Below, piece after piece: positions 15,241 through 61,957 of a stretch of 64,000 bases of DNA. The position numbers were made by a program, and so were the translations under genes. How positions within the stretch are numbered: the first letter of the stretch is position 1; the number at the start of each line of letters is the position of its first letter. The notes under the pieces were generated by a model. The model was not told where the DNA came from. It saw only the letters and a list, made by a program, of their open reading frames with translations, and did not search any database. The stretch is from Patescibacteria group bacterium UBA6201 (GTDB lineage Bacteria > Patescibacteriota > Minisyncoccia > Phycocordibacterales > UBA918): NCBI GenBank assembly GCA_002422025.1, contig DISV01000005.1, positions 51,617 through 115,616 of the forward strand. Reading direction: 5' to 3'.

Positions 15241-15295
15241 ACAGCGCGACAATTTTATACAAAATTGTCGCGCTGTTTTTATTTTTACAAAAAAA
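15241..15295 (+). terminator. Rho-independent terminator after murB
   Basis: acagcgcgacaatt / aattgtcgcgctgt 14-bp stem followed by a T-run. Confidence 0.7.
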
Positions 15296-15674: not shown

Positions 15675-15687
15675 TCTCCTAGCTTAG

Positions 15688-15722
15688 AAAACGCCGCACA
15701 CACTGTGCGGCGTTTTCTTTTC
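15688..15722 (+). terminator. Rho-independent terminator
   Basis: cgccgcacacactgtgcggcg hairpin followed by TTTTCTTTT. Confidence 0.75.
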
Positions 15723-18823: not shown

Positions 18824-18950
18824 AACTTCCAAAAGGTCTTTAGAAAGCGTCCCACGCTTTCTCAACTCCAACTAGCACAACTGCACCACAAGGGCACTTC
18901 TTGTTTCAATGTCGCATTAGATTTCTTAAAGTTCTCGAGTCTGCAGATAT

Positions 18951-18985
18951 AAAAAACACCGCACAGGTTGTGCGGTGTTTTTTAT
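18951..18985. terminator. Bidirectional rho-independent terminator
   Basis: aaaaaacaccgcacaggttgtgcggtgtttttt. It sits between convergent genes. Confidence 0.75.
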
Positions 18986-26300: not shown

Positions 26301-29300
26301 GGCCTCTCCCTGTCCGGTGATGCTGTAGCACTCACTGCCGGCTATATTATCCCACTTTCAGCTTCAACAACTGAGTGGTCAACCGCGTATGGGTGGGGAG
26401 ATCACAGTATCGCTGGTTACTTAACCAACATTACTGGTGAATCACTCGAAGACCTGACTGATGTTGCCACAATGACCAAGTCTACTGGTGATCTTCTTTC
26501 ATGGAATGGTTCAAGTTGGACGAATGTGGCTACGTCATCTCTTGGCTTCAATGACCACGACAGTGTCACTCTTGCTGGTGAAAATTATCTATCACTAGCA
26601 ACTCAACAAATCACGGCCAACGCCATCAACCCAGATAACCTAGCATCCGCCGACTTCGGTGACTTCACCTGCAACGGTACTACTTGTTCGTTTGATACTG
26701 ACTCTGTCAGTGACAACGAGATTGATTACACAACAGTCACTCTCAATGACCTAACTTTCGATGTAGGCAACGTTTCGAAGACCGAGTTTGGTTACCTAGA
26801 TGGAGTCACTTCTGCTATACAAACGCAACTTGATTCAAAACTTTCAACTACCACTGCTGCCTCAACTTACTTAACAATCAACAATAATTTATCTGACCTT
26901 GCCTCCACCACTGTGGCCCGCACTAATCTCGGACTTGGTACCGTTGCTCTACTTAACAGTATTGATATCTCTGATAATACCAATCTCTCTGTATCAGCGA
27001 CCGGCCTCTCCCTGTCCGGTGATGCTGTGGCACTCACTGCCGGCTACACCATCCCACTTTCAGCCTCAACCACTGAGTGGTCAACTGCATACGGATGGGG
27101 AGACCACAGTATCGCTGGCTATCTAACCAATATTACTGGTGAATCCTTCTACGACTTAGTTGACACTCAAAGTTCATACACTGCCAACCGTGTTTTATAT
27201 CAAGGCGGAGGAGGTGTGACTGACTCAGCCAACCTCACCTTCGACGGTTCACTCTTCAGTGTGATTGGTACCGCTTCATCTACAAATCTTTTTACTACCA
27301 ATGCCACTACCACCAATATCACTGCTTCAGGTCACGCTACTCTTGCTACAGCATCATCTACTAACTTCACTGTCTCAGGTAACTCATATATAGGTACGGT
27401 TCTTGGTGGTGCATGGCAGGGAAGCGCAATCGGTGTGCAGTATGGCGGTACCGGAGCAAGTACATTCACTGCCGGAGAAATTCTTGTAGGCAACGGTACT
27501 GGAGCCATCACTTCAACCTCAACCGCCAACCTCAAGGCCACTCTTGGACTTAACAATGTAGAAAACACTGCACTCTCTACTTGGGCTGGTTCATCTAACA
27601 TTACTACCCTTGGTACTATCGTTTCTGGTGTTTGGAATGGAACTACTATAGATGTAGCTCATGGCGGCACCGGAGCTACTACTCTCACCGGTCTCCTTTT
27701 AGGTAATGGCACTGGTGCATTCACTGCTACCACCACATTATCTTCTTCTTATATAGAAGATGCTTATGTTCTCAATACTGGCGACTCTATCTCTGGTAAC
27801 CTAACTTTCTCTGGATTAGCCGCTAATATTGTTCTAGGTTCTAACTGGCTTTCAGGCGATGGAGGAGACGAGGGGCTGTTTGTTGATAGTGTCGGTAAAG
27901 TCGGTATCGGGACGGCTTCTCCCACCGCAGCATTATCAATTACTAATGATGGAACATCTGATCTTGATGTCTTGCTTGATAACGGCACAGTTCAAGGAGT
28001 ATTTGAGTTACAATCAAACAGTGTTGCAAGGTTGGGTACCATAACGAATCATTCATTCGAATTCGTAACCAATAACTCTACTCGTTTTAAGGTAACTAAT
28101 GCCGGGAATATTGGTATAGGCTCCACCTCTCCATCATCTAAACTCACTGTTCAAGGTGACACCTGGATTGGTGGAAACATTACTGCCACTGGCACTTTAA
28201 ATATCACTGATCACTCTACTCTAACTACTGCCTCCACCACCAACCTCACTGTCTCAGGTAACAGCTATCTCGGTACAGTTGCCTCCGGTACCTGGAATGG
28301 TACCGACATCGACATTAGCGACTACACCAACCTCTCTGTATCAGCGACCGGCCTTGAACTTTCGGGTGATGCTATTGCACTCACAGCTGGCTACACTATC
28401 CCACTCACTGCTTCAACTACTGCCTGGAACACAGCCTATAGTTGGGGTGACCACAGCATAGCTGGATATCTAACCAATATTACTGGTGAATCACTTGAAG
28501 ACCTGACCGACGTAGCAGCAATGACTAAGTCTACCGGTGACCTTCTTTCATGGAATGGTTCAAGTTGGACGAATGTAGCGACTTCAAGCTTAGGGATTAC
28601 TGGCACTTCCGACGGCGTCGCTTCTTCAAGTGTGGCGTTTTCGGTCCACAAGAATGGGACGAACCAGACAGTGACAGCAAATACATTTACCTTGCTCACT
28701 TGGTCCACCGAAGTCTTCGACACCAACAACAACTTCGACCTCACCACTGAACGCTTCACGCCAACGGTGGCGGGGAAGTATATTGCGACCGTTGCGTCGT
28801 TTTGTAATGACAGTACAACAAATTGCCAAGTAGCAATATATAAAAATGGTGTCTTGTACTCAAAAAATGTGAATGTTGATCCGAATAATACAGGATCTAT
28901 GGTAACTACTATTGTAGACATGAACGGTACCACTGATTATCTAGAAGCCTATGGATATGATGGTGGAGGAACTACTATCTCCGGCGCTGCAGAGGTCACC
29001 TACTTCTCCGGCGCCCTCATTGCTCCAGCTAACGGCCTCGCCGGCGGTTGGTCTAACGACGGCACGCAGTCATACCTCGCCGACTACACCGACCTCGTAG
29101 CTATCGGTACTTCTACTGCCGCCGCAAAGCTCGATGTGTGGGGAAGTGCTGGTTCAACTGACATACTCGGAATTTCTTCAAGTACTGGTTCACGACTCCT
29201 CACTGTGACAAGTAACGGTAATGTGGGGATTGGAACCACCACTCCTTCGTCGAAACTCTCCGTCTACGGTGACGTTCTGCTCGAAGGCTCAAGCCGTTAT

Positions 29301-32300
29301 CTAAACTTCGGTAGTACTGCAGGTACATCAGGCTACGGTATTCGCGACAACGCCGGAACCATAGAGTTTAAAAACTCTGGTGGCTCTTGGACCGGTATTG
29401 GCACGGGCACTGGCAGTACTGGTTCTAGTAGTGTGGCGTTTTCGGTACATAAGAATAGCACTGCGCAGACGGTGACTTCAGCTACTGTCACGCTTCTTAC
29501 TTGGTCTACCGAACTCTTCGACACCAACAACAACTTCGACCTCACCACTGAACGCTTCACGCCAACGGTGGCAGGGAAATATACAGTTACACTTTCAGCT
29601 TTTTGTGATAATGGTACAACAGGTTGTGCGGTCTACATCTATAAAAATAACGTACTTGTAAACCAAGGCTATACTGGGTCAAACGTTGCTACCGGTGTTG
29701 CAGCTGTTACGGCCATTATAGATATGAACGGTACGACGGATTATCTAGAAGCTTATGTATTTAATAATAATGGTACTACCATTAATGGTGGTAAACATGT
29801 CACCTACTTCTCCGGCGCCCTCATTGCTCCAGCTAACGGCCTCGCCGGCGGTTGGTCTAACGACGGCACGCAGTCATACCTCGCTGACTACACCGACCTC
29901 GTTGCTATCGGTACCACTACCGCAGCCGCTAAGCTTGATGTCTGGGGAAGTGCTGGTTCAACTGACATCCTTGGTATTTCATCCTCAACAGGTTCACGTT
30001 TGTTGACACTCACTAGTGGAGGCAACCTCGGTCTCGGCACTACTACTCCGTCATCTAAACTCTCCATCCAAGGAACTGGTAATCTCCTCTCACTCTTCGA
30101 CACTGCCGGCAACTCTATCTTCAATATTGCTTCTGCCACTACATCTACCTCTACTCTAGCTACCAACCTCGCAATCACCGGCAACCTCTCACTTTCTGGT
30201 TCACTCTACGATAGTACTAGCTCTGCTGGTTCTTCAGGTATGGTGTTACAAAGTACTGGTAGTGGAACTCAATGGGTAGCCACTTCATCACTTGGTATTA
30301 CTGGTGGTACTGATGGTGTCGCTTCTTCAAGTGTGGCGTTTAGTGTGCATAAGAATGGAACAAATCAGACTGTGACAAGCAATGTAGAAACTTTGGTGAC
30401 TTGGTCCACAGAAGATTTTGACACAAATAACAACTTCGACCTCTCAACAGAACGTTTTACTCCTACTATTGCAGGTAAATATATAGTCACAGTCGCTGTA
30501 CGGTGCGATTCGGCGACCACCTTTTGTCAGGCACGTCTGAGAAAGAACGGAAGTGGTATATCAACTCGATATGAATATACAGCCGGAGGTGGCACTCCAC
30601 CTACTACAGTTACAGCTACTGTGGATATGAATGGTACGACGGATTACTTGGATGTTATGGCGACAAATAGTGGGGGAACCACAATAAACGGTGGTGCGGA
30701 ATACACATACTTCTCCGGCGCCCTCATCGCTCCAGCTAACGGCCTCGCCGGCGGTTGGTCAAATGACGGTACTCAGTCATACCTCGCCGACTATACCGAC
30801 CTCGTTGCCATCGGTACCACTACCGCTACTGCTAAACTCGACATCTGGGGAAGTGCTGGTTCAACTGACATTCTTGGTATCTCATCCAGTACTGGTTCAC
30901 GACTTCTCACAGTGACGAGTAACGGTAATTTGGGAATTGGAACCTCTTCACCAACATACAAACTTGATGTAGCTGGAGGATATATAAACGTAGATGGTAA
31001 CAGTGGTGGATATAAAATAAGTGGTAACACCATTCTTCAAGCTTCGAGTACTAACTTCAGTACCTTGGTTGGTAATGGAGCTGGTACAGTACTGCAAGCC
31101 ACCGGTCTATACAACACCGCTGTTGGTTATCAGTCATTAAATGTAGCGACTTCTTCTACTTACAACACCGCTGTCGGTTATCAATCGCTCTTCTCTGATA
31201 CTTCTGGTGGTAGCAACACAGCTACTGGTTACAAGGCTTTGTACTCAAACACCACTGGTGGTTTTAACACCGCACTGGGACGAGAATCTCTCTATTCCAA
31301 CACCACTGGTGTCGCCAACACTGCTTATGGTTACAAATCTCTCTATTCCAACACCACTGGTAGTTACAACGTGGCTAGTGCGTATCAAGCTCTACAGTCC
31401 AACACCACTGGTAGTTACAACATGGCCTTGGGACGTCAGGCTCTCTACTCCAACACCTCTGGACAAGGTAATACCGCGGTAGGGTTTAGAACTGGTTACG
31501 GTGACGGGTCTACATTAAATCAACAATCAGTAGTGGATGAGTACATAACATTGATTGGTTATCAGGCTTCTCGTGATGCTTCAGTGGCTTCGACCACCTC
31601 TCTCACTAACAGCGTTGCGATTGGTTACAACGCTAGATTCTTAGCTAGCAACCAAGTAGTGCTCGGTAATGATTCGGTTACTTCCACTTTGTTGAAAGGT
31701 AATGTCAGTATCGGTACCACCACCAACGCTGTAGCTGGTGGCACAGCAGCCTTCTTAAACATTGATCGTTCAAGTGCGGGGGCGTTCGCCGTGGGTACAT
31801 ATATAAATCTCACTACAAGTGCTTCTCATTTTGGTTTTGCTAACCCTAACGGTTTGGTTGGTACTATTAACACTTCTGCTTCCGCCACCACCTACAACAC
31901 CACTTCCGACCGTCGTACCAAGGAAAATATTACCGAAACCGTACTCGGACTCGATGCCTTAATGCAGCTACCAATACGTGACTTCTCATTCATTAAAGAT
32001 ACTACCCACGCTACAACCTCCGGCTTCATCGCGCAGGAGTTATATGAAATATTCCCTTGGGCAGTCTCAACCAACGGTGACAATGGTATTGACCCACTTA
32101 CCGGCACCAGTACTCCTTGGTCAGTGGACTATGGTCGAGTGACTCCACTCATTGCTCGGGCAGTACAGGAATTGAATTTGAAACTAGAAGATTTGGCCAC
32201 CACTAGCTTGTATGCCGATTTGGAAGCTGATTCATTTACTAAGAGTTTCTTCGATAAACTCATCGCTTGGTTTGCTGACGCTACCAATGGTATTGAGAAC

Positions 32301-32726
32301 TTCTTTGCGAATCGGGTAAGCACTAAGGAGTTATGTGTTGGGGACGGCAGTGGGGCGGAGACCTGTATCACTAAGAGTCAACTAGATTCGCTATTACAAA
32401 GTGCGGCGGTAGGTAGTTCAAACAGTGGGGGAGAAGGAGGTGGTTCTTCCACTCCAGAACCCCTTCCTCCAGTAGACACCACTACTCCTGAACCAACCAC
32501 TAACGATACTGCTGCAACTACGACTACAGACGTAACTACCGACACTACCACAACTACAGACGGAACCACAGACACACCATCACCCGACAATGGAACGATA
32601 ACCGACACTGAACCAGTTCCAGAACCTACGCCTGAACCAGCTCCCGATCCAGAACCAGAGTCAGCTCCGGAACCGGCGCCAGAACCTACTCCAGAACCTA
32701 CTCCAACCCCAGCTCCAACGGAATAA
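23364..32726 (+). CDS. Giant (3120 aa) membrane-anchored repetitive surface fibre: N-terminal cytoplasmic HTH_17-like domain, one TM helix, repetitive ectodomain, tail-fibre-like module with C-terminal S74 intramolecular chaperone domain, Pro/Thr/Glu-rich tail
   Basis: It is a single uninterrupted 9363-nt ORF. The frame-1 GTG is at 23364 and the ATG at 23367. The HTH is LSVKEAATVSSYTTAHVTRLAQKGLITAVRDGRQWLIDPISL. The TM is AVVSAVFTTCVALLFSLGSVY (~aa 109-129). Repeats and the C-terminal module are listed separately. Confidence 0.85.
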   Translation: MMSDSTEPSNVDTSKSTKFLSVKEAATVSSYTTAHVTRLAQKGLITAVRDGRQWLIDPISLQKFVWDTEEKKKVRKEQLRKERVEELHLSSTGQTLEDSDEEFSIFDVRTAVVSAVFTTCVALLFSLGSVYDQNEQIFAGSTVVSGVERLSYDFKDRVLPRTRDLSATTLLSAPIATYSGKVLESLWCDLKLLWYKNDSCGAPAIEYAILPIINNRDADPETNVTVNNTYITNPVEREVVEREIVREVFVQDGQLSFASYITRTEYDNQVDAIMRSIENIDTSGGGGGTSNVASLEDLSDVAAMTESTGDLLIWTGSTWSNIATSSLGISGGSGAVDSVNGQTGVVVLDTGDVSENGNLYFTNARARESLSSSATGLSYATSTGVFSLTAGYTIPLTASTTEWSNTTNLVTAGSASWDAAAASTTALTPSYLRGLFSNSATGLTYDSGTGATSLTSGYTIPLLASTTEWVTAYGWGDHSLQNYIQQNDNVVFGNATTTSLVVSNNITTSLNDGCVEVAGGILTSTGSNCGIGSGGITSLNGLTTSSQSFATSTSGGLDLSITSSSGVHTFTAGLSAGYTIPLSASTTEWANTRNIVNASSTLWDTAYSWGDHSTAGYLTTIASSTIRNMFSNTATGLTYDSGTGITSLTAGYTIPLTASTTEWSTTYGWGDHSIAGYLTEVATTTVRSMFSTGTGLSYSTTTGEFINTGVLSLGGLTGAVATSSLHVSTSTYAFTSGTSSIALSLDGFNSTDYLTLSAWYATTTDALDEGLNNLYFTNARARESLSSSATGLSYATSTGAFSLTAGYTIPLTASTTEWSNTANLVTAGSASWDAAAASTTALTPAYLRGLFSNSATGLTYDSGTGATSLTAGYTIPLTASTTEWATAYGWGDHSAVGYLVSGDIDTSSELLTIVSDETGTGSLVFNASPTFTGNTTLANASTTNLTVSGNSYLGTVASGTWNGTDIDISDYTNLSVTATGLSLSGDAVALTAGYIIPLSASTTEWSTAYGWGDHSIAGYLTNITGESLEDLTDVATMTKSTGDLLSWNGSSWTNVATSSLGFNDHDSVTLAGENYLSLATQQITANAINPDNLASADFGDFTCNGTTCSFDTDSVSDNEIDYTTVTLNDLTFDVGNVSKTEFGYLDGVTSAIQTQLDSKLSTTTAASTYLTINNNLSDLASTTVARTNLGLGTVALLNSIDISDNTNLSVSATGLSLSGDAVALTAGYTIPLSASTTEWSTAYGWGDHSIAGYLTNITGESFYDLVDTQSSYTANRVLYQGGGGVTDSANLTFDGSLFSVIGTASSTNLFTTNATTTNITASGHATLATASSTNFTVSGNSYIGTVLGGAWQGSAIGVQYGGTGASTFTAGEILVGNGTGAITSTSTANLKATLGLNNVENTALSTWAGSSNITTLGTIVSGVWNGTTIDVAHGGTGATTLTGLLLGNGTGAFTATTTLSSSYIEDAYVLNTGDSISGNLTFSGLAANIVLGSNWLSGDGGDEGLFVDSVGKVGIGTASPTAALSITNDGTSDLDVLLDNGTVQGVFELQSNSVARLGTITNHSFEFVTNNSTRFKVTNAGNIGIGSTSPSSKLTVQGDTWIGGNITATGTLNITDHSTLTTASTTNLTVSGNSYLGTVASGTWNGTDIDISDYTNLSVSATGLELSGDAIALTAGYTIPLTASTTAWNTAYSWGDHSIAGYLTNITGESLEDLTDVAAMTKSTGDLLSWNGSSWTNVATSSLGITGTSDGVASSSVAFSVHKNGTNQTVTANTFTLLTWSTEVFDTNNNFDLTTERFTPTVAGKYIATVASFCNDSTTNCQVAIYKNGVLYSKNVNVDPNNTGSMVTTIVDMNGTTDYLEAYGYDGGGTTISGAAEVTYFSGALIAPANGLAGGWSNDGTQSYLADYTDLVAIGTSTAAAKLDVWGSAGSTDILGISSSTGSRLLTVTSNGNVGIGTTTPSSKLSVYGDVLLEGSSRYLNFGSTAGTSGYGIRDNAGTIEFKNSGGSWTGIGTGTGSTGSSSVAFSVHKNSTAQTVTSATVTLLTWSTELFDTNNNFDLTTERFTPTVAGKYTVTLSAFCDNGTTGCAVYIYKNNVLVNQGYTGSNVATGVAAVTAIIDMNGTTDYLEAYVFNNNGTTINGGKHVTYFSGALIAPANGLAGGWSNDGTQSYLADYTDLVAIGTTTAAAKLDVWGSAGSTDILGISSSTGSRLLTLTSGGNLGLGTTTPSSKLSIQGTGNLLSLFDTAGNSIFNIASATTSTSTLATNLAITGNLSLSGSLYDSTSSAGSSGMVLQSTGSGTQWVATSSLGITGGTDGVASSSVAFSVHKNGTNQTVTSNVETLVTWSTEDFDTNNNFDLSTERFTPTIAGKYIVTVAVRCDSATTFCQARLRKNGSGISTRYEYTAGGGTPPTTVTATVDMNGTTDYLDVMATNSGGTTINGGAEYTYFSGALIAPANGLAGGWSNDGTQSYLADYTDLVAIGTTTATAKLDIWGSAGSTDILGISSSTGSRLLTVTSNGNLGIGTSSPTYKLDVAGGYINVDGNSGGYKISGNTILQASSTNFSTLVGNGAGTVLQATGLYNTAVGYQSLNVATSSTYNTAVGYQSLFSDTSGGSNTATGYKALYSNTTGGFNTALGRESLYSNTTGVANTAYGYKSLYSNTTGSYNVASAYQALQSNTTGSYNMALGRQALYSNTSGQGNTAVGFRTGYGDGSTLNQQSVVDEYITLIGYQASRDASVASTTSLTNSVAIGYNARFLASNQVVLGNDSVTSTLLKGNVSIGTTTNAVAGGTAAFLNIDRSSAGAFAVGTYINLTTSASHFGFANPNGLVGTINTSASATTYNTTSDRRTKENITETVLGLDALMQLPIRDFSFIKDTTHATTSGFIAQELYEIFPWAVSTNGDNGIDPLTGTSTPWSVDYGRVTPLIARAVQELNLKLEDLATTSLYADLEADSFTKSFFDKLIAWFADATNGIENFFANRVSTKELCVGDGSGAETCITKSQLDSLLQSAAVGSSNSGGEGGGSSTPEPLPPVDTTTPEPTTNDTAATTTTDVTTDTTTTTDGTTDTPSPDNGTITDTEPVPEPTPEPAPDPEPESAPEPAPEPTPEPTPTPAPTE
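24436..28600 (+). repeat. Intragenic array of ~10 copies of a 40-65-aa motif (..SATGLTYDSGTGATSLTAGYTIPLTASTTEW.TAYGWGDHS..)
   Basis: The DNA motif ggctacac(c/t)atcccact(c/t) recurs near 24533, 24732, 25093, 25313, 25775, 25975, 26340, 27043 and 28385. It includes a ~370-nt segment duplicated at ~90% nt identity (24436-24800 vs 25680-26045). There are also three copies of a ~100-aa module GTWNGTDIDISDYTNLSV.ATGL.LSGDA.ALTAGY.IPL.ASTT.W.TAY.WGDHSIAGYLTNITGES (26230, 26960, 28280). Confidence 0.85.
28585..30965 (+). repeat. Three tandem ~810-900-nt (~270-300 aa) intragenic repeat units
   Basis: Each unit starts SLGITG.SDGVASSSVAFSVHKNGTNQTVT (28585, ~29395, 30291). Each contains ..FDTNNNFDLTTERFTPTVAGKY..DMNGTTDYLEAY..YFSGALIAPANGLAGGWSNDGTQSYLADYTDLVAIGT and ends ..SNGN(V/L)GIGTTTPSSKLSV. 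Several 100-nt blocks are almost identical at the nt level (e.g. 29010-29110, 29815-29915, 30720-30820). Confidence 0.85.
31110..31480 (+). repeat. Tandem 48-51-nt repeats encoding ~8 copies of a 16-17-aa N-T-A-x-G-Y-x-(S/A)-L-Y-S-N-T-T-G motif (tail-fibre / YadA-head-like beta-solenoid repeat)
   Basis: YNTAVGYQSLNVATSST / YNTAVGYQSLFSDTSGGS / NTATGYKALYSNTTGGF / NTALGRESLYSNTTGVA / NTAYGYKSLYSNTTGSY / NVASAYQALQSNTTGSY / NMALGRQALYSNTSGQG. Confidence 0.8.
31900..32200 (+). other. Peptidase S74 / C-terminal intramolecular chaperone (auto-cleaving) domain of phage tail-fibre / tail-spike type
   Basis: TSDRRTKENITETVLGLDALMQLPIRDFSFIKD....SGFIAQELYEIFPWAVS....VDYGRVTPLIARAVQELNLKLEDL. This matches the SD(R/K)xxKxNI...LxxLxxLxV..Y.yk......hiGfIAQEv..v.P consensus of endosialidase / T5 L-shaped-fibre chaperone domains. 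Confidence 0.7.
32430..32723 (+). repeat. Low-complexity Pro/Thr/Glu/Ala-rich C-terminal tail (TPEP/PEPT repeats)
   Basis: ...TPEPLPPVDTTTPEPTTNDTAATTTTDVTTDTTTTTDGTTDT...EPVPEPTPEPAPDPEPESAPEPAPEPTPEPTPTPAPTE*. Confidence 0.8.
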
Positions 32727-38379: not shown

Positions 38380-39846
38380 ATGAACACTGAACTAAAAAAA
38401 GTTGTAACCCGTTTTGCTCCGTCTCCGACGGGGTTCTTACACATTGGGGGAGTAAGGACCGCTCTTTTTGCTTACTTGTACGCCAGAAAAATGGGAGGCA
38501 CTTTTATCTTGCGCATCGAAGATACTGATAAGCAGCGCGAGGTGGAAGGTTCAATTCAGCACATAATGGATTCATTGCGGTGGCTAAATATTGAGTGGGA
38601 CTACGGCCCAGACAAACCAGGGTCTTTTGGTTCTTGTATCCAGTCAGAGCGTCTAGACAGCTACCAAAAGTACGCCAAACAACTGATCGATAAGGGATTA
38701 GCATACCCTGACCCGTATACTAAGGAAGAAGTAGAAAAATTTCGTCAAGATGCTGAGGCGCAAAAAAAGCCATTCCTATTTCGTAATTACCGCCCAGAGA
38801 CTTTTGATGTGTGGGATGGGACACGGCCACTTAGGCTTAAGGTGCCAGAAGTCAAACGGTATGTGTGGCAAGACGCAGTGCGAGGTCAGCTTGAGGCCGG
38901 TGAAGAAATGCTCGACGATATTATCTTAATTAAATCAGATGGTTATCCGACTTATAACTTTGCGCACATTATCGACGACTTAGAAATGGGAGTGACTCAC
39001 ATCATGCGTGCGGATGAGTTCATTGCTAGTCAACCAAAGTTTCTATCTATCTATGATGCTCTAGAAATTCCATATCCAGTCTTCGTTTCACTGCCTCCGA
39101 TTCTGCGAGATGATCGCACGAAGAAGCTCGGTAAGCGCGATGGTGCGAAAGACATTTTGGATTATAAAGTGGAAGGGTTCTTGCCAGAAGCAATGTTTAA
39201 CTTTTTAGCACTGATAGGTTGGAATCCAGGTACTGAGCAAGAACTATTTACAAAAGAAGAATTGATTCAAGCCTTTGATTTAGAGCGTATCCAAAAGTCA
39301 GGTGGTGCTTTCAACGAAGAAAAACTCAAATGGCTCAATAAGGAACATCTAAATCTTTTGAGTACATCTGAGTATGAAAAACTAGTCAGAGCGGCTATTC
39401 CAAAGGCAGTGACGGAGTCTCCATCGTTTGATGAGAATCGTCTCGGAAAACTCATTCCAGTTATTCGCGAGCGCACTCATATAATGTCAGATGTGACGAC
39501 TGCTTTTGAAGCAGGGGAGTACAGCTTTGTTTTTACGGACCCAGATGTTTCCTTGGATACATTACGTTTTAAGAAAGACCCAGAGGTTGCTTCTGCTGCG
39601 CCTCGTCTCCAACATTTAACTGAACTGTTAACAAATGCTGACTTTTCTTCACCTGAAAGTATTAAGGCAGCGGTGTGGGATTATGCTTCAATGGAGGGCA
39701 GGGGAGAGGTGTTGTGGCCGATGCGGGTAGCTCTAACTGGCCTTGAACGTTCCCCAGATCCTTTCACCGTGGCCTACATTATTGGTCAAACTGACACTTT
39801 GCGACGACTCCAGACAGTCTATGATAAGATCGGTCACGTTATTTAG
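38380..39846 (+). CDS. gltX: Glutamyl-tRNA synthetase
   Basis: 488 aa. RFAPSPTGFLHIGGVRTALFAYLYAR (HIGH region) and KLGKRDG (KMSKS-like). Confidence 0.9.
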   Translation: MNTELKKVVTRFAPSPTGFLHIGGVRTALFAYLYARKMGGTFILRIEDTDKQREVEGSIQHIMDSLRWLNIEWDYGPDKPGSFGSCIQSERLDSYQKYAKQLIDKGLAYPDPYTKEEVEKFRQDAEAQKKPFLFRNYRPETFDVWDGTRPLRLKVPEVKRYVWQDAVRGQLEAGEEMLDDIILIKSDGYPTYNFAHIIDDLEMGVTHIMRADEFIASQPKFLSIYDALEIPYPVFVSLPPILRDDRTKKLGKRDGAKDILDYKVEGFLPEAMFNFLALIGWNPGTEQELFTKEELIQAFDLERIQKSGGAFNEEKLKWLNKEHLNLLSTSEYEKLVRAAIPKAVTESPSFDENRLGKLIPVIRERTHIMSDVTTAFEAGEYSFVFTDPDVSLDTLRFKKDPEVASAAPRLQHLTELLTNADFSSPESIKAAVWDYASMEGRGEVLWPMRVALTGLERSPDPFTVAYIIGQTDTLRRLQTVYDKIGHVI

Positions 39847-40193
39847 AGAGCTAAAGCTCTCTAAATAACGTGACCTCAGACTGACCCTTCTAGATAAAGA
39901 ATCGGCTCCGCCGATACATGCCTTTATGTTGCCTTACTCCACGAATAAAATTCGCTGAATGAGGCAACATCTAGTAAGAACACCCTCTAGGTCCATTGGC
40001 CTAGAGGGACCAGGTGTTCTTGCTAGCTAAGGAATTGCCCACCGGCAAGTTCATAATTTCATGTTACGAGCATACGGAGGCTGAGGCCTCCGTATGCTCG
40101 TAACATAGCTAGTAAAAACGTTTTTTTTGTTATTTTCTTAATTCTCAGCACAAAAAATTAGAGTAATTAATCAACATCTAGTAAAATAGTAGG

Positions 40194-41510
40194 GTGATAG
40201 TAGCCAAACCCCTCAAATATTTTGTAGCTTTTATAATCGGTGCTCTTATTTTGCCCGGGCTATTCTTTATGATGCCGACCGTCAATGCGCAAACTGAAAC
40301 TGAGCGCTTACAGGCAGAGATTAAGGAAAGAAACGCTAGGCTTTCAGAGATTGAAAAGGAGATTGCTGGTTACGAAGCTGAACTACAGAAAGTTGGTGCA
40401 GAAAAGAGTACTCTCCAGAGTGCCATCAATCAATTGGAATTAGAGCGGAAGAAAATCCAGGCTGATATTACTTACACTCAAAATAAAATAGACAATACTG
40501 ATCTTGAGATAAACAAATTGTCCTTGGAGATAGGTGATACTAGTGACAGTATTGGCAAGACTGCGGCAGCGGTAGGGGAGATTCTTCGTACAGTGGATCA
40601 AAATGATAGTGAGTCATTGATTGAACTTTTTCTTCGAAACGAGAATCTGTCTGAATTTTGGAATGAAGTCGCGAGCTTAGAGAGCGTGCGAACCGTAATG
40701 AATGACCGAGTCTATGAGTTGACTGTGCTCAAAAGTTCTCTCGAAGGGAAAGTGGGAGAAGAGACAATGAAGCGCAGCGAACTAATGTCTTTAAAAAACC
40801 AATATTCTGGGCAGCAAGAAATTTTGGATAGTAACCGTAGACAAAAGAGTGATCTCCTAACTGCCACTAAGAACGAAGAGGCAGAATATCAAAAGATTTT
40901 GAGTGATAAAAAGGCGGCTCGTGATAAGTTGATAAAAGAAGTTCAATCTATTGAGTCTGAGCTCCAGTTTATGTTGGATCCCAACTCTATTCCGGTTAAA
41001 GGCAGTTCCGTCTTTCAGTGGCCACTTGAAAACATTGTGATCACTCAGTACTTTGGTTACACCAAATTTGCTCTTCAGAACCAAGGTGTCTACAAAAACA
41101 ATATGCATAATGGAATTGACCTCGGTGCCCCGACCGGTACTAAGATCTTTGCGCCACTTGGTGGAACGGTACGCATGACCGCCAATACCGACTTGGTACC
41201 AGGTTGTTATTCTTGGGGACAATGGGCTTTGGTGGACCACCCAAATGGTCTTTCTACGCTCTATGCTCACATGAGCAACACTTCAGTCTCTCCCGGACAA
41301 AAATTGAATACAGGGGACCTGATTGGCTTTGTGGGAGCTACTGGCTATGCTACCGGCCCCCATCTTCACTTTACCGTTTACGCCAGTGCAGCGGTTGAAA
41401 TTAAGAGCTTCAATCAATTCAAGGCGGTTACAGGCTGTGGAGCAGCCCTTTCACCATTCTCTGCGGTCGAAGGTTATCTAAACCCTATAGACTACCTGCC
41501 AGCATCATAG
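40194..41510 (+). CDS. M23 family metallo-endopeptidase with N-terminal coiled coil (EnvC/LytM-like murein hydrolase)
   Basis: 438 aa. Signal/TM, ~230-aa coiled coil, then an M23 domain (HNGIDLGAPTGTKIFAPLGGTV...LYAHMSN...GPHLHFTVY). Confidence 0.8.
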   Translation: MIVAKPLKYFVAFIIGALILPGLFFMMPTVNAQTETERLQAEIKERNARLSEIEKEIAGYEAELQKVGAEKSTLQSAINQLELERKKIQADITYTQNKIDNTDLEINKLSLEIGDTSDSIGKTAAAVGEILRTVDQNDSESLIELFLRNENLSEFWNEVASLESVRTVMNDRVYELTVLKSSLEGKVGEETMKRSELMSLKNQYSGQQEILDSNRRQKSDLLTATKNEEAEYQKILSDKKAARDKLIKEVQSIESELQFMLDPNSIPVKGSSVFQWPLENIVITQYFGYTKFALQNQGVYKNNMHNGIDLGAPTGTKIFAPLGGTVRMTANTDLVPGCYSWGQWALVDHPNGLSTLYAHMSNTSVSPGQKLNTGDLIGFVGATGYATGPHLHFTVYASAAVEIKSFNQFKAVTGCGAALSPFSAVEGYLNPIDYLPAS

Positions 41511-41685
41511 AAAAACTGACTAATAGCCCCATTTTGCTTAGTTTGTAAGAAATACTCATCTTATACGTCATCGGACCAAGGTGAGTATATTTACGAAGTA
41601 TTAGTGGTATTAGTCTCACTTGGGGGCATTGGGGCCTAACATGCAACTCTGACAAGAGTTCACAAGAAACGAATAGGAAGCGGAA

Positions 41686-41865
41686 ATGAAAGATGATGTG
41701 GGGACACCAATCGTGAAATCTTCTAATGAGCCTGTTGCGGAAAATCACGACTCCATTCAACTTACAGTTTGGTCATACTTGGGTTTCTTTCTACTCTGTC
41801 TGGTCGTTCTTACGGTCGACAAATGGTATGGGCCAGTTTCAGGTTTGATCTACAGCCAATTCTAA
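41686..41865 (+). CDS. Candidate small membrane protein (59 aa), hypothetical
   Basis: MKDDVGTPIVKSSNEPVAENHDSIQLTVWSYLGFFLLCLVVLTVDKWYGPVSGLIYSQF. It is preceded by GGAAGCGGAAatg and followed 30 nt later by a GC hairpin plus TTTTATT (41895-41925). It is below the ORF-track size cutoff. Confidence 0.3.
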   Translation: MKDDVGTPIVKSSNEPVAENHDSIQLTVWSYLGFFLLCLVVLTVDKWYGPVSGLIYSQF

Positions 41866-42180
41866 ACTCGTCAACAGAACCACAGTGAAGCATCACGTCG
41901 GCCATTCGGGCCGGCGTTTTATTGTCGCTTCTCTAACATATCTGCATCCTTGGCTTCCAGATTAATTAATGTATCTACAAAAAGTTGTCCCACTTCATTA
42001 TTTAGGATACTTGATAAGGACACCCCTACTTCCACACCCTCATGAAGACAGGAGTAGGGAAGTCAGACACTTTTTCATTCTGAGATTTCCATTTTAAATT
42101 TTCATGGCTCCCCTACCGCTCAGCAGGGGAGAGGGCTGGCTACCCCACATCTGTTTAAAAATTTTTACAAACTGATTAAG

Positions 42181-42224
42181 AACATGCGCATAATTTTTTC
42201 AGAAGAAAAAATTATGCGCATGTT
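42181..42224. other. 44-bp perfect palindrome (20-bp arms) resembling the XerC-binding half of dif; candidate recombination site or strong stem-loop
   Basis: aacATGCGCATAATtttttc-agaa-gaaaaaATTATGCGCATgtt. The arm core TGCGCATAAT is identical to the XerC arm of E. coli dif (GGTGCGCATAAT). It lies 214 nt upstream of a Xer-family recombinase gene. Confidence 0.35.
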
Positions 42225-42437
42225 GGAGTAGGGGACATAAATTAAACAAAACTGAACAATCAAATCCAAATTAAGCACCTGTGGATAACTTTGCTGGCTG
42301 TGGTGTAATATTGCTAGTATTATTCTCTTTACGTACATTGTACGAATAATACAGTATTGATATTCCTACATATATTACTCACTTCCGGGCTCTGTGCCCT
42401 ACACTAACCTACTCTTATTTAAGTTAAAATTTAATGT

Positions 42438-43424
42438 ATGCGATTACGTAAGAGCGATGACCCGATCACTTACTATCTAGTCCCCTTTCTAGAATATTGT
42501 GAAATTGAAAAAGGCCTTTCTGATAATACTCAAAGAAATTACGAACAATACCTTAAGTTGTTCATACATTGGCTTAATGTCGCCAATTTGAATGATTTAA
42601 AGCCTCATGAGATAACCCCGGAGCATATTTGGGATTATCGACTGTTTTTATCACGCAAATACAAAAGTCGCCGTAATTTGCCCCTGTCCAAGAAATCTCA
42701 GAACTACTACTTAATAGCCCTACGCTCACTACTCGATTTTTTTGCCGAAAAGGACCTAGAGTCACTACCGTCAGCCAAAATTAAGCTTGCCAAACAAAAA
42801 GATGACCATACGGTCGCGTTCTTGGATGTTAATGACATAGAAAAGATGGTTAAGGTACCTAATGTCAGTAAGCCAGGTGGTTTACGCGACCGAGCCATTA
42901 TGGAATTATTTTTTTCGTCTGGTTTGCGTATCGCAGAGCTTTGCAAACTCGATCTTGATCAGATGTCGATGCTAAAAGATAATGATGAAACTCGTACGTA
43001 TGAGTTGTCAGTCGTTGGAAAAGGTCGGCATGTTCGCACAATATTTATCTCACCCCGAGCAGCTGGCTGGCTCCGTGAATACATAAAAACAAGACGTGAC
43101 GTCTGGAAGCCTCTTTTTATCAATTATCGAACCCGTCCAAATCCTAATGGTATTGAGACTGAAAGACGTCTCACTCCCCGTTCGATTCAAAGTATGATAG
43201 CTAAGTCGGCGATTATGGCCGGGTTATCAAAAAAAGTCACTCCACACACCCTTCGCCACACCTTTGCTACCGATCTTTTATCCCGTGGTGCTGACTTGCG
43301 TAGCGTCCAGGAGCTTTTAGGTCACCAAAACGTCTCCACGACTCAGATATATACTCACGTCACCAACAAACAGTTACGGGACATCCACGAGCGTTTCCAT
43401 GGTGGTAATGAGAATAAAAAATAA
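42438..43424 (+). CDS. xerC: Tyrosine site-specific recombinase, XerC/XerD family
   Basis: 328 aa. N-terminal SAM-like core-binding domain and C-terminal catalytic domain with R..HxxR..Y (LRHTFATDLLSRGADLRSVQELLGHQNVSTTQIYTHV). Confidence 0.8.
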   Translation: MRLRKSDDPITYYLVPFLEYCEIEKGLSDNTQRNYEQYLKLFIHWLNVANLNDLKPHEITPEHIWDYRLFLSRKYKSRRNLPLSKKSQNYYLIALRSLLDFFAEKDLESLPSAKIKLAKQKDDHTVAFLDVNDIEKMVKVPNVSKPGGLRDRAIMELFFSSGLRIAELCKLDLDQMSMLKDNDETRTYELSVVGKGRHVRTIFISPRAAGWLREYIKTRRDVWKPLFINYRTRPNPNGIETERRLTPRSIQSMIAKSAIMAGLSKKVTPHTLRHTFATDLLSRGADLRSVQELLGHQNVSTTQIYTHVTNKQLRDIHERFHGGNENKK

Positions 43425-43427
43425 AAT

Positions 43428-43457
43428 AAAAACTCCCTACGGGAGTTTTTATTTTGA
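43428..43457 (+). terminator. Rho-independent terminator after xerC
   Basis: aaaactccctacgggagtttttatttt. Confidence 0.75.
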
Positions 43458-46046: not shown

Positions 46047-46201
46047 AAAACTTTCTTAAAATCGGCACATACGCACCAGTTTCAGAATTTTCCTCGGTCG
46101 TCGTAGATGGACCTACGCTTCTCTCGTAAAATTCTTCCAACTGGCACGTCTGCACACGATTTGAAAAAAGTCTGGACGAGAAGAAAATTGTACACCATAA
46201 A

Positions 46202-46233
46202 CAAAAGGCCGCCCTTACGGGCGGCCTTTTGTT
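46202..46233. terminator. Bidirectional rho-independent terminator
   Basis: aaaaggccgcccttacgggcggccttttgttt between convergent genes. Confidence 0.8.
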
Positions 46234-46241
46234 TATGGTGT

Positions 46242-52705: not shown

Positions 52706-52728
52706 CTTTTATGATCAAGAGGAAATAA

Positions 52729-52764
52729 GAAAAGGCGCGCCAACGGCGCGCCTTTTCTTATTTT
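52729..52764 (+). terminator. Rho-independent terminator after rpmA
   Basis: aaaaggcgcgccaacggcgcgccttttcttatttt. Confidence 0.8.
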
Positions 52765-59574: not shown

Positions 59575-59617
59575 AAAACAAAAACTCCCGTAAGGGAGTT
59601 TTTGTTTAATTTTTTCA
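59575..59617. terminator. Rho-independent terminator downstream of rplU
   Basis: aaaaactcccgtaagggagtttttgtttaatttttt. Confidence 0.8.
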
Positions 59618-61916: not shown

Positions 61917-61957
61917 CAAAATGCCGCGGACACCTTAGTGTCCGCGGCATTTTGAGT
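61917..61957. terminator. Bidirectional rho-independent terminator
   Basis: aaaatgccgcggacaccttagtgtccgcggcatttt. Confidence 0.8.

What the first reader, a model, noticed from the sequence alone, without database searches (positions are those of the whole stretch)
42001..42437. dif-like 44-bp perfect palindrome and CCCCTAC/GTAGGGG motif cluster immediately upstream of a Xer-family recombinase
A ~930-nt non-coding stretch separates the M23 peptidase gene from xerC. Its last 430 nt contain a perfect 20-bp-arm palindrome (42181-42224). The arm core ATGCGCATAAT matches the XerC-binding arm of E. coli dif (GTGCGCATAAT) at 10 of 11 positions. The region also has four copies of CCCCTAC or its complement, as two opposed pairs (42023, 42051, 42110, 42225), and a ctcccc/ggggag hairpin. 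Single-recombinase Xer systems (XerS/difSL, XerH/difH, archaeal XerA) typically have dif right next to the recombinase gene. The 22-nt spacing between arm cores is much longer than a canonical 6-8-bp central region. The true site may be a sub-part, or this may be an accessory or regulatory palindrome.
Basis: partly seen in the sequence, partly recalled or inferred. Interest (0 to 1): 0.6.

Follow-up and report, generated by a model that had tools for sequence, protein, structure and literature searches.

The report
Terminus dif site beside xer, not the palindrome
The flagged interval does hold the chromosome-dimer resolution (dif) site of a Patescibacteria (CPR) bacterium next to its Xer recombinase gene, but that site is a conserved 28-bp sequence about 100 bp downstream of the 44-bp palindrome, which is one of many ordinary intergenic hairpins in this genome.

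Summary
The palindrome is real: 20-nt perfect arms at 42181-42200 and 42205-42224, with a 4-nt loop. It is not the Xer site. It occurs only in this species, varies in a strain with an identical Xer protein, and is one of at least 11 perfect hairpins with arms of 14 nt or more in the 64-kb window.

The dif-like site is TATTCTCTTTA-CGTACA-TTGTACGAATA at 42321-42348, 89 nt upstream of xer. Four lines of evidence support it:
- Its 24-bp core is nearly invariant upstream of xer in all 30 fetched relatives whose Xer is at least 62% identical.
- Similar 11-6-11 sites precede xer in 21 of 55 more distant species.
- In a relative, a 5.85-kb integrase-less, inovirus-like element is inserted in this core, flanked by a 22-bp direct repeat.
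- GC skew, gene orientation and a polar G-rich word all flip there.

The polar word is AGGG[GA]AG. It points toward the site 162:13 and 165:14 across 700 kb, and 34:3 within the window.

This is a new member of a known kind.

The parts
42321..42348 (+). Proposed dif site (28 bp). Left arm TATTCTCTTTA (42321-42331), central region CGTACA (42332-42337), right arm TTGTACGAATA (42338-42348).
   Evidence: It is the best-conserved block of the intergenic region. The core TTCGTTTTAC(A/G)TA(T/C)ATTGTGCGAA lies 32-115 nt upstream of xer in almost all relatives with at least 62% Xer identity (285 nt in L023). A mobile element is inserted in it in L088, flanked by the 22-bp direct repeat TTACGTACATTGTGCGAATAAT. 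It is the only such site in the window. The polar-word switch falls between 42230 and 42486.
42438..43424 (+). The xer gene: a 328-aa tyrosine recombinase of the Xer type.
   Evidence: Pfam Phage_integrase 1.2e-38 plus Phage_int_SAM_1. It is equally similar to XerC (226 bits) and XerD (218 bits) and below both curated cut-offs. Orthologues of about 70% identity occur across Paceibacterota and Kaiserbacteria. The RKHRHY catalytic residues are visible in the translation.
42181..42224 (.). Inverted repeat of 20 + 20 nt with a 4-nt loop (the flagged palindrome). A species-specific intergenic hairpin, not the Xer crossover site.
   Evidence: Searches confirm the repeat. It is absent from L081/L082/L001/L084/L086 and from L092-L094. 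The variant in L096 carries one compensatory pair and a 2-nt deletion. It is one of at least 11 perfect hairpins with arms of 14 nt or more in the window. No T-tract follows it, and the terminator scan does not list it.
42056..42062 (+). AGGGAAG: a copy of the polar (KOPS-like) word pointing toward dif.
   Evidence: The block (C/T)AGGGAAG is conserved in relatives.
42108..42131 (+). Conserved hairpin CTCCCCT-N10-AGGGGAG. Its 3' half (42125-42131) is a toward-dif copy of the polar word. Its 5' half contains the reverse copy CCCCTAC (42110).
   Evidence: There are 9 consensus pairs, mostly conserved, with one compensatory change. The energy is not exceptional.
42230..42236 (+). AGGGGAC: the last toward-dif copy of the polar word on the + strand before the site.
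   Evidence: The block GGAGNAGGGGAC is invariant in the window, L092, L093, L094 and L096.
42023..42029 (+). CCCCTAC: a reverse-oriented copy. It can pair with 42225-42234 in the single-sequence fold.
   Evidence: (I3). It is not conserved in L081-type relatives.
42280..42288 (-). A perfect DnaA-box-like 9-mer (TTATCCACA on the - strand). Conserved, function unknown.
   Evidence: It is invariant in the window, L084 and L092-L094. A match with at most 1 mismatch lies within 60 nt left of dif in 15 of 31 non-redundant loci, against a 1.7% background.
42338..42366 (+). Inferred xer promoter overlapping dif: -35 TTGTAC (the inner part of the right arm), a 17-nt spacer, and a weak -10 TATTCC.
   Evidence: In relatives, TAnnnT hexamers peak 16-17 nt after TTGTGC (17 of 31 loci). 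This is an inference only; the simple promoter scan did not call it in the window.
41895..41917 (+). Intrinsic terminator after the 59-aa ORF (41686-41865).
   Evidence: 9-bp stem, 7 GC pairs, followed by TTTATTG.
43423..43455 (.). Bidirectional terminator hairpin at the convergent junction after xer.

Best explanation
The interval 42001-42437 is the dif region at the replication terminus of a Patescibacteria (Minisyncoccia/Paceibacteria-type CPR) chromosome.

Proposed site and mechanism. The Xer substrate is the 28-bp site 42321-42348: an 11-bp arm, a 6-bp central region and an 11-bp arm, 89 nt upstream of the xer gene. Xer monomers are inferred to bind the two arms, cleave at the arm/centre borders and exchange strands between sister copies to resolve chromosome dimers. 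This is the classical Xer/dif mechanism. Here it is packaged as one module with the recombinase gene, as in XerS/difSL and XerH/difH.

Polar words. A G-rich word, AGGG(G/A)AG, points toward this site from both sides regardless of gene strand. I infer that it orients a DNA translocase (FtsK-type) toward dif, as KOPS does.

Promoter. The xer promoter probably overlaps the right arm, so Xer occupancy could feed back on xer expression (inferred).

The palindrome. It takes no part in strand exchange. It is a fast-evolving, species-specific stem-loop of the kind this genome places at many gene boundaries. Most likely it acts as a transcription-insulating or terminator-type hairpin between the upstream unit and the dif/xer promoter. 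Its right arm probably arose by fold-back copying of an older left arm.

Shown versus inferred. Shown: conservation, position, uniqueness, the insertion junctions in a relative, and the strand-polarity switch. Inferred: Xer binding and cleavage, FtsK reading of the polar word, promoter overlap, and the role of the hairpin.
For: 1. Conservation.
- The core TTCGTTTTAC(A/G)TA(T/C)ATTGTGCGAA lies 32-115 nt upstream of xer in nearly every fetched locus with at least 62% Xer identity; the one outlier is L023 at 285 nt.
- It is the most conserved block in alignments A1 and A2.
- In 21 of 55 loci with 50-57% identical Xer, a [TG]TCG-N16-CGA[AC] 28-mer with 6-10 of 11 symmetric arm positions lies upstream of xer, mostly 35-110 nt. 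I estimate about 2 such loci by chance.
- The site is single-copy in each locus checked and in the window.

2. Mobile-element insertion.
- The same Xer protein (P0008) occurs on contigs with an empty 413-bp intergenic region (L089-L091).
- It also occurs on one contig (L088) with a 5,850-bp insert whose junctions carry the 22-bp direct repeat TTACGTACATTGTGCGAATAAT. The repeat comprises 3 nt of the left arm, the central region, the right arm and one further base.
- The insert encodes a rolling-circle Rep (PF23343 7e-16; phrog_3419 4.5e-22), a Zot/pI-like protein, a small coat-like protein and no integrase.
- Rep homologues sit on free 5-6-kb contigs, two of them with terminal overlaps suggesting circles.

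3. Terminus signature.
- In 62 species loci the top-strand GC skew is +0.037 to the left of xer and -0.084 to the right. Left exceeds right in 53 of 62 loci (p = 1.7e-10).
- 77% of long-ORF length points toward the site on each side.
- In the window, skew is +0.046 on the left and -0.002 on the right, and 80% and 65% of coding length converge on the site.
- In the complete Minisyncoccus archaeiphilus chromosome the locus lies at 48% of the record.

4. Polar word.
- Counts toward versus away from the site: AGGGAAG 162:13, AGGGGAG 165:14, CAGGGGA 107:4. The Shine-Dalgarno-like AGGAGG gives 183:69.
- The skew holds inside genes oriented against it, 118:27.
- In the window the ratio is 34:3 (p = 1e-7), and the flip falls between 42230 and 42486.

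5. The palindrome.
- It is not conserved.
- Ten other perfect hairpins with arms of 14-23 nt occur in the window, almost all at gene 3' ends or between genes.
- L084 has a homologue of the left arm and loop only.
Against: - No biochemical evidence exists that this Xer binds or cuts the 28-bp site.
- The window's own copy departs from the otherwise invariant core at three arm positions: TTCG>TTCT, a T>C in the left arm, and GTGCG>GTACG in the right arm. One of these is the G of the TTCG...CGAA frame shared across the phylum. Its activity is therefore less certain than in relatives, and a second site elsewhere in the genome cannot be excluded from 64 kb.
- The window's own GC-skew switch is weak and is disturbed by a 9.4-kb gene with negative skew.
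- Two reverse copies of the polar word (42023, 42110) lie close to dif, which KOPS logic does not predict.
- A polar word could serve another replication-oriented function (Chi-like) rather than FtsK loading. FtsK was not found among the ten large ORFs of the window that I scanned, and I did not check for it in the genome.
- The palindrome is not next to an annotated gene end, has no T-tract, and shows one compensatory substitution in L096. It may therefore have a function I have not identified.
Confidence: 0.75

Rival explanations
1. The 44-bp palindrome, or a sub-part of it, is the dif site on which the adjacent recombinase acts.
For: The arms contain TTATGCGCA, which matches 7 of 9 positions of the family right arm TTGTGCGAA and 8 of 9 of TTATGCGAA in distant relatives. 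The arms have the correct inward orientation, and the repeat lies 214 nt from xer.
Against: The spacer between CATAA and TTATG is 18 bp, whereas tyrosine recombinases exchange strands 6-8 bp apart (11 bp in difSL, PMC5357621). The palindrome is absent in relatives with 84-90% identical Xer. The GCGC cores are altered in L096, whose Xer is 100% identical. A separate, strongly conserved canonical 11-6-11 site exists 97 bp downstream and is the one used by a mobile element.
Confidence: 0.03
2. The palindrome is an auxiliary Xer-binding element. Two arm-like half-sites held 18 bp apart would bind Xer without recombination, for example to titrate or regulate it. This might compensate for the degenerate dif arms of this species.
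For: The half-sites resemble Xer arms. The dif core of the window lineage is unusually diverged. One compensatory change in L096 keeps the dyad symmetry.
Against: L096 loses GC from the right half-site while keeping the same Xer and the same dif. No equivalent exists in any relative. Hairpins of the same form but unrelated sequence are common in the window. The arm resemblance (7 of 9) has a chance probability of a few percent given the offsets tried (my estimate).
Confidence: 0.07
3. The palindrome is a relic of a small mobile element that once used the dif region, such as a mini-IMEX or the hairpin of a single-stranded attP.
For: The region left of dif is a landing pad. There is an inovirus-like element in L088, and stacked 80-95-bp units built from dif-arm copies around a palindrome in L004, L005 and L060. 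The region around the palindrome is the most divergent part between the window and L096.
Against: Conserved chromosomal blocks (GGAGNAGGGGAC, CCTGTGGATAAC) lie between the palindrome and dif. No dif-arm copies or the CAGCAGATT...AATCTGCG signature flank it. The half-site orientation is opposite to that in the L004-type units. L084 carries a homologous left arm in place.
Confidence: 0.07
4. The palindrome is an operator for an unknown dimeric or tetrameric regulator that recognises the two ATGCGCAT cores, 30 bp (about three helical turns) apart.
For: Pairs and triplets of the palindromic word TTATGCGCATAA recur in many unrelated metagenome contigs. From the match lengths I calculate centre-to-centre spacings of about 22, 32 and 42 bp.
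Against: Those repeats are full 12-bp palindromes in direct repetition, and they occur in unrelated, mostly GC-rich organisms. Here only the 8-bp core is palindromic. The core is changed in L096 (ATACGCAT and a deleted GC) with a compensatory change elsewhere in the stem. That pattern fits a structural constraint rather than a sequence-specific one.
Confidence: 0.06
5. The conserved 28-bp site is not a chromosome-dimer resolution site. It would instead be only the promoter/operator of xer, or the att site of an integrase-type element of which 'xer' is a part.
For: The -35-like and -10-like hexamers overlap or follow the site. The protein is below the curated XerC and XerD cut-offs.
Against: The gene sits in conserved housekeeping synteny (mraY-ftsW-murG-gltX-M23 | xer | murI-DoxX-ROK) in many species. 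The 11-6-11 architecture with a central CATATA is dif-like. GC skew, gene orientation and the polar word all switch at the site. An element without its own integrase is integrated there.
Confidence: 0.06

Closest known systems
XerS/difSL of streptococci and lactococci, and XerH/difH of Helicobacter and Campylobacter (single-recombinase Xer modules)
   Same: The recombination site lies immediately next to the recombinase gene, so the two form one module at the terminus (PMC5357621; here). The arms are imperfectly symmetric. In distant relatives they are nearly symmetric (10 of 11), as expected for one protein binding both arms.
   Different: difSL is 31 bp with an 11-bp central region; here the layout is 11-6-11. 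The protein is not XerS (107.7 bits against a cut-off of 267) and scores equally to XerC and XerD. Whether the genome has only one Xer could not be tested.
XerCD/dif of E. coli and B. subtilis
   Same: A 28-bp site with 11-bp arms and a 6-bp AT-rich centre. The family centre CATATA compares with TGTATA and TATATA. The site lies at the skew switch of the terminus, G-rich polar words converge on it, and integrase-less phages exploit it.
   Different: In E. coli, dif is not linked to xerC or xerD, and two paralogous recombinases are used. The arm sequences differ: TTCGTTTTA and TTGTGCGAA here, GGTGCGCATAA and TTATGTTAAAT in E. coli. The resemblance of TGTGCGAATAA to the XerC arm is in the wrong orientation relative to the centre.
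KOPS (GGGNAGGG, E. coli) and SRS (GAGAAGGG, B. subtilis) FtsK/SpoIIIE-orienting polar sequences; AIMS
   Same: A short G-rich word with more than 90% strand bias. It is independent of gene orientation, flips at dif, and has several copies close to dif (properties of KOPS from PMC5357621). GGGNAGGG itself is skewed 114:14 here.
   Different: The best word is a 7-mer, AGGG(G/A)AG. Recognition by an FtsK gamma domain is untested. A Chi-like or other replication-polar role is not excluded.
IMEX (integrative mobile elements exploiting Xer): CTXphi, VGJphi and TLCphi of Vibrio cholerae
   Same: The L088 insert is a filamentous-phage-type element (rolling-circle Rep, Zot/pI-like protein, small coat-like protein) without an integrase. 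It is integrated at dif. Its attP matches one arm plus the central region and is divergent in the other arm, as described for TLCphi (PMC5357621). A complete dif is regenerated at one junction.
   Different: The host is a CPR bacterium. The element shows no sequence relation to the Vibrio phages. No dif-like attP could be recognised in its free 5-6-kb relatives. It is present in a relative, not in the window.
Rho-independent terminators and intergenic stem-loops
   Same: The palindrome has the form (20-bp perfect stem, 4-nt loop) and the intergenic position of at least 10 other hairpins in the window, most of them at gene 3' ends.
   Different: There is no 3' T-tract. The T- and A-runs lie inside the stem rather than flanking it. 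No annotated gene ends just upstream.

Membership tests
dif site (Xer recombination site): applied to the 44-bp palindrome | Two ~11-bp inverted arms separated by a 6-8-bp central region (up to 11 bp in difSL) | tested here: not met
   18 bp lie between CATAA and TTATG.
dif site (Xer recombination site): applied to the 44-bp palindrome | Conserved at the same position in related genomes | tested here: not met
   It is absent in L001, L081-L086 and L092-L094. It is altered in L096, which has an identical Xer.
dif site (Xer recombination site): applied to 42321-42348 | 11-6-11 architecture with partly symmetric arms | tested here: met
   The site reads TATTCTCTTTA-CGTACA-TTGTACGAATA. The family frame TTCG-N16-CGAA reads TTCT-N16-CGAA in the window.
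dif site (Xer recombination site): applied to 42321-42348 | Conserved and single-copy | tested here: met
   The core is present upstream of xer in all loci with at least 62% Xer identity. There is one copy per locus and one in the window. Whole genomes were not searchable.
dif site (Xer recombination site): applied to 42321-42348 | Located at the replication terminus (switch of GC skew and gene orientation) | tested here: met
   The polar-word flip falls between 42230 and 42486. Whole-chromosome skew was not computable with these tools.
dif site (Xer recombination site): applied to 42321-42348 | Bound and cleaved by the cognate Xer recombinase; resolves dimers | not testable with these tools
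   This needs EMSA or suicide-substrate cleavage and an in vivo resolution assay. The indirect support is the site-specific insertion of an integrase-less element.
Single-recombinase Xer module (XerS/difSL, XerH/difH, XerA/dif) | dif genetically linked to the recombinase gene | tested here: met
   The site ends 89 nt upstream of the ATG. In relatives the distance is 32-115 nt.
Single-recombinase Xer module (XerS/difSL, XerH/difH, XerA/dif) | Only one Xer paralogue in the genome | not testable with these tools
   There is no second homologue in the 64-kb window. The rest of the genome is not available.
Single-recombinase Xer module (XerS/difSL, XerH/difH, XerA/dif) | The recombinase belongs to the XerS or XerA family (XerH has no model in the library used) | tested here: not met
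   XerS scores 107.7 bits against a cut-off of 267, and XerA 183.4 against 220. The best scores are XerC 226/335 and XerD 218.5/329.6, all below their cut-offs.
KOPS/AIMS polar sequences: applied to AGGG(G/A)AG, including 42056, 42125 and 42230 | Strong strand bias that flips at dif and is independent of gene orientation | tested here: met
   Strand bias is 92-96%. The ratio is 118:27 in counter-oriented genes and 34:3 in the window.
KOPS/AIMS polar sequences: applied to AGGG(G/A)AG, including 42056, 42125 and 42230 | Recognised by the FtsK gamma domain and directs translocation | not testable with these tools
   No FtsK was found among the ten large ORFs of the window that I scanned. An ftsK gene is annotated in Saccharibacteria TM7x (10.1101/2022.03.25.485537).
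IMEX: applied to the L088 insert in a relative | No integrase of its own; inserted at dif; flanked by dif and a hybrid site sharing one arm plus the centre | tested here: met
Intrinsic terminator: applied to the palindrome | GC-rich stem-loop followed by a T-tract | tested here: not met
   The stem is present but no T-tract follows on either strand, and the scan does not report it.
Known RNA families (Rfam 15) | A match to a covariance model in 41400-42600 | tested here: not met
   There were no hits at gathering thresholds in the whole window. At E<=5 there were only spurious miRNA-hairpin matches. RNAalifold supports only the local CTCCCCT/AGGGGAG hairpin.

The most novel reading that the evidence does not exclude
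Patescibacteria carry a compact, self-contained terminus module. A single Xer recombinase would be transcribed from a promoter embedded in its own dif site. A conserved DnaA-box-like element sits next to that site, so that Xer occupancy, and possibly DnaA, would couple xer expression or dimer resolution to replication state. In the window's species, whose dif arms have drifted, the arm-like palindrome would act as an extra Xer-binding element. The module would also be a hotspot where filamentous phages and miniature dif-derived elements accumulate.
Probability: 0.1. Interest if true: 0.65.

Novelty: new member of a known kind. Interest (0 to 1): 0.45.

Why it matters
- It gives a sequence-level definition of the chromosome-dimer resolution site, its polar orienting word and the terminus position for a large, mostly uncultured part of the bacterial tree (CPR/Patescibacteria). 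My literature searches found no description of dif, Xer or KOPS in this group.
- The xer-linked site is a practical marker for locating the terminus and checking MAG assemblies in these genomes.
- The same data show that integrase-less, filamentous-phage-like elements use this site in CPR bacteria.
- For the scan itself, long perfect palindromes in this genome are common intergenic hairpins and should not be read as recombination sites without a conservation test.

Tried and rejected
- Rfam and tRNA scans. The whole window at gathering thresholds and 41400-42600 at E<=5 gave only spurious miRNA-like hits on the hairpin. ARAGORN found nothing.
- E. coli-style dif search. CATAA-N6-TTATG with at most 1 mismatch gave 5 hits against 2.9 expected, none near xer.
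- oriC idea. One perfect DnaA box lies at 42280-42288, but there is no cluster (23 one-mismatch boxes against 15.8 expected), and all polarity signals indicate a terminus.
- Larger structured RNA. I tested a structure spanning the G-rich blocks and the palindrome. The single-sequence fold has z = -4.7, driven by the palindrome. The 7-sequence consensus keeps only the local 9-pair hairpin, with a covariation term of +0.75.
- Metagenome scan. ATGCGCATAA-N4-30-TTATGCGCAT returned more than 120 loci. 
- Viral scan for the dif core. There were 10 hits, nine from one unrelated family on large contigs (84-223 kb) and all lacking the left arm. That is about the number I would expect by chance.
- Relatives of the L088 Rep. 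None were found in IMG/VR.
- dif-like attP in free elements. In four free 5-6-kb relatives of the L088 element the best matches were 13-14 of 17, which is background level.
- Alternative site TGTGCGAATAA-N6-... This reading resembles the E. coli XerC arm at 9 of 11 positions. I rejected it because the would-be second arm is not conserved.
- Shine-Dalgarno explanation of the polar word. Rejected: AGGAGG is only 73% skewed, and the word keeps its polarity when antisense to genes.
- The 59-aa ORF (41686-41865). Comparison with the 59-aa ORF of L094 gave no significant similarity.
Full report
**Observation**

The inverted repeat is real. The arms are 42181-42200 and 42205-42224, 20 nt each and 100% complementary, around a 4-nt spacer AGAA. 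It is unique in the window and never arises in shuffles. As a DNA hairpin it folds at -22.1 kcal/mol, z = -11.

Only three exact CCCCTAC/GTAGGGG copies lie in the interval, at 42023 (+), 42110 (+) and 42228 (-). The fourth is GTAGGGA. The CTCCCCT...AGGGGAG hairpin (42108-42131) exists.

The gene at 42438-43424 encodes a 328-aa tyrosine recombinase. It scores equally to XerC and XerD but below both curated cut-offs. The 927-nt gap upstream also holds a 59-aa ORF with its own terminator.

**Organism and context**

The Xer protein has orthologues of about 70% identity throughout Paceibacterota, Kaiserbacteria and other Patescibacteria. The closest genome hit is a Minisyncoccia MAG at 84%.

The neighbourhood is housekeeping and syntenic in relatives: mraY, ftsW, murG, gltX and an M23 peptidase on the + strand, then xer, then murI, DoxX, ROK and others mostly on the - strand.

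**Is the palindrome conserved?**

No. Relatives with 84-85% identical Xer (L001, L081-L086) and 89-90% identical Xer (L092-L094) have unrelated sequence at that position.

A contig encoding a 100% identical Xer (L096) carries a variant. It has G>A in the left arm matched by C>T in the right arm, plus a 2-nt deletion that removes GC from the right core. The ATGCGCAT core on which the dif analogy rested is therefore not maintained, although the stem largely is.

L084 has a homologue of the left arm and loop only. This suggests the right arm arose by fold-back copying.

The window contains at least 10 other perfect hairpins with 14-23-nt arms and 2-4-nt loops, of unrelated sequence. Nearly all are at gene 3' ends or between genes: 39832, 40061, 15237, 46192, 52723, 61917, 18949, 43423, 15686 and 59576. 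The palindrome is one of a common class in this genome.

**The conserved site**

The best-conserved block of the intergenic region lies 97 bp downstream of the palindrome.

An nhmmer profile of this block finds it just upstream of xer in every locus with at least 62% Xer identity. The core is nearly invariant: TTCGTTTTAC(A/G)TA(T/C)ATTGTGCGAA, 32-115 nt from the start codon in all but one locus (L023, 285 nt). Read as 11-6-11, the consensus is nnTTCGTTTTA-CATATA-TTGTGCGAAnn. In the window it is TATTCTCTTTA-CGTACA-TTGTACGAATA (42321-42348).

In 21 of 55 more distant loci (50-57% Xer identity), a [TG]TCG-N16-CGA[AC] 28-mer with 6-10 of 11 symmetric arm positions lies upstream of xer. Examples are ACTTCGCTTAA-TCTACA-TTATGCGAAGT and, in the cultured Minisyncoccus archaeiphilus, ATGTCGTACAA-TGTAGG-TTAAGCGACAT. 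I estimate that about two such loci would be expected by chance.

The site is single-copy in every locus checked and in the window.

**A natural integration experiment**

The same Xer protein (P0008) is found on four contigs with an empty 413-bp M23-xer spacer. It is also found on one contig (L088) with a 5,850-bp insert.

The junctions are clean:
- empty site: ...TTATTCGTT[TTACGTACATTGTGCGAATAAT]CATATA...
- attL: ...[same 22 bp]GTACTTAG...
- attR: ...GACAAATCG[same 22 bp]CATATA...

The repeat covers the last 3 nt of the left arm, the central region, the right arm and one further base. attL is therefore a complete site, and attR has a foreign left arm.

The insert encodes a rolling-circle Rep (PF23343; phrog_3419), a Zot/pI-like protein, a 52-aa coat-like protein and no integrase. 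Rep homologues sit on free 5-6-kb contigs with all genes on one strand, one of which carries a Zot-domain gene. Two of these contigs have terminal overlaps.

This is the pattern of an integrative element exploiting Xer, with an attP resembling that of TLCphi: one arm plus the centre conserved, the other arm divergent (PMC5357621). Inoviruses have been reported in CPR (PMC6813254).

**Terminus evidence**

Across 62 species loci:
- Top-strand GC skew is +0.037 to the left of xer and -0.084 to the right.
- Left exceeds right in 53 of 62 loci (p = 1.7e-10).
- 77% of long-ORF length converges on the site from each side.

In the window, GC skew is +0.046 on the left and -0.002 on the right, and 80% and 65% of coding length converge.

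In the complete M. archaeiphilus chromosome the locus lies at 48% of the record. Whether that record starts at the origin was not checked.

**The G-rich motifs**

I ran an unbiased k-mer scan of 700 kb written so that 5'-to-3' points toward the site. It puts AGGGGA(G), AGGGAAG and CAGGGGA at the top.

| Word | Toward : away |
|---|---|
| AGGGAAG | 162:13 |
| AGGGGAG | 165:14 |
| CAGGGGA | 107:4 |
| GGGGAGAG | 59:1 |
| GGGNAGGG | 114:14 |
| AGGAGG (Shine-Dalgarno-like) | 183:69 |

The bias is independent of coding strand: 324:28 in co-oriented genes, 118:27 in counter-oriented genes and 98:31 in intergenic DNA.

In the window, AGGG[GA]A[GAC] occurs 21 times on the + strand to the left of the site and once to the right. 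It occurs 13 times on the - strand to the right and twice to the left (34:3, p = 1e-7). The flip falls between 42230 and 42486, bracketing 42321-42348.

The copies at 42023 and 42110 are reverse copies, and 42110 pairs with 42125 in a hairpin that recurs in relatives.

This behaviour matches KOPS/AIMS (PMC5357621). Reading by FtsK is inferred, not shown.

**Mechanism proposed**

Xer binds the two arms of 42321-42348 and exchanges strands across the 6-bp centre to resolve chromosome dimers. Polar words on both replichores guide a translocase to the site.

The near-symmetric arms in distant relatives and the gene linkage suggest a single-recombinase module of the XerS/XerH type. The number of Xer paralogues could not be tested.

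TAnnnT hexamers peak 16-17 nt after the TTGTGC of the right arm (17 of 31 loci). The xer promoter therefore probably overlaps dif, which would allow autoregulation (inferred).

The palindrome is most likely a transcription-insulating or terminator-type hairpin, or a neutral fold-back product. Its exact role is the weakest part of the account.

**Caveats**

- The window's site differs from the invariant core at three arm positions, including the G of the phylum-wide TTCG frame.
- Only 64 kb of this genome could be searched.
- No binding or cleavage data exist.

**Comparison and novelty**

The system works like Xer/dif with KOPS and IMEX, and is packaged like XerS/difSL or XerH/difH.

The protein does not meet the curated thresholds of XerC, XerD, XerA or XerS. 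I therefore file it as a new xer-linked dif family within a known kind.

Literature searches returned no description of dif, Xer or KOPS in Patescibacteria. The library does not cover everything.

**Verdict**

Interest is moderate, and it comes from what lies beside the flagged palindrome rather than from the palindrome itself.

Noticed in passing
L004:3770-3933; L005 about 3590-3917; L060 about 3845-3937: Small 80-95-bp units are stacked immediately left of dif: 2 copies in L004, at least 3 in L005 and 1 in L060. Each unit has a dif left arm (TTCGTTTT), then (G/C)AGCAGATT, a palindrome built from right-arm-like sequence, AAATCTGCG, and an inverted left arm plus centre (TTATGTAAAACGAAC). They look like miniature non-autonomous elements or decayed IMEX scars accumulating at dif.
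   Followed up: partly
window 42280-42288; the 60 nt left of dif in L002, L007, L008, L009, L011, L017, L018, L020, L022, L060, L084 and L092-L094: A DnaA-box-like 9-mer (TTATCCACA, at most 1 mismatch, either orientation) lies within 60 nt left of dif in 15 of 31 non-redundant loci. The background is 1.7% of random 60-nt windows. It is often only 1-5 nt from the left arm. A DnaA-type box at the terminus is unexplained.
   Followed up: partly
window 39832-39875, 40061-40106, 15237-15280, 46192-46241, 52723-52763, 61917-61954, 18949-18985, 15686-15718, 59576-59607: The genome is rich in perfect hairpins with 14-23-nt arms and 2-4-nt loops at gene boundaries. Several have no T-tract, and two lie in tandem between gltX and the M23 peptidase gene. 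Why the stems are so long and so perfect is unclear.
   Followed up: partly
window 42321-42348 compared with L092-L094 and all other relatives: Only the window's species (window, L095, L096) deviates from the otherwise invariant dif core: TTCG>TTCT and T>C in the left arm, GTGCG>GTACG in the right arm. Relatives with 89-90% identical Xer keep the consensus. This could reflect co-evolution with Xer or a weakened site.
   Followed up: no
window 23364-32726: A 3,120-aa ORF on the + strand has higher GC (0.46-0.49) and negative GC skew, opposite to its surroundings. It may be a recently acquired or compositionally odd giant surface protein gene.
   Followed up: no
L088:4066-9893 (GCA_050289645.1, JBNKGD010000247.1); L227-L230: A family of inovirus-like elements of about 5-6 kb (Rep PF23343; a Zot-like gene in L088 and L228; genes on one strand in the free contigs, all but one in L088) has more than 170 Rep homologues, nearly all on 1-7-kb contigs. 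One member is integrated at the dif of a Minisyncoccia-type bacterium.
   Followed up: partly
L112:8506-8577, L120:10967-11038, L210, L215, L113, L114 (metagenome contigs): The self-complementary word TTATGCGCATAA recurs as direct repeats in many unrelated metagenome contigs. From the match lengths I calculate spacings of about 22, 32 or 42 bp. It looks like an operator or iteron family and is unrelated to the window.
   Followed up: no
window 42052-42165; L081:5629-5740; L009:3726-3800: There is a conserved arrangement: (C/T)AGGGAAG, then about 40-50 nt, then the hairpin TCCCCTAC...GTGGGGGAG, then in some lineages a T-rich run. It could be a small transcript of about 100 nt. It has no Rfam match and only weak covariation.
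   Followed up: partly
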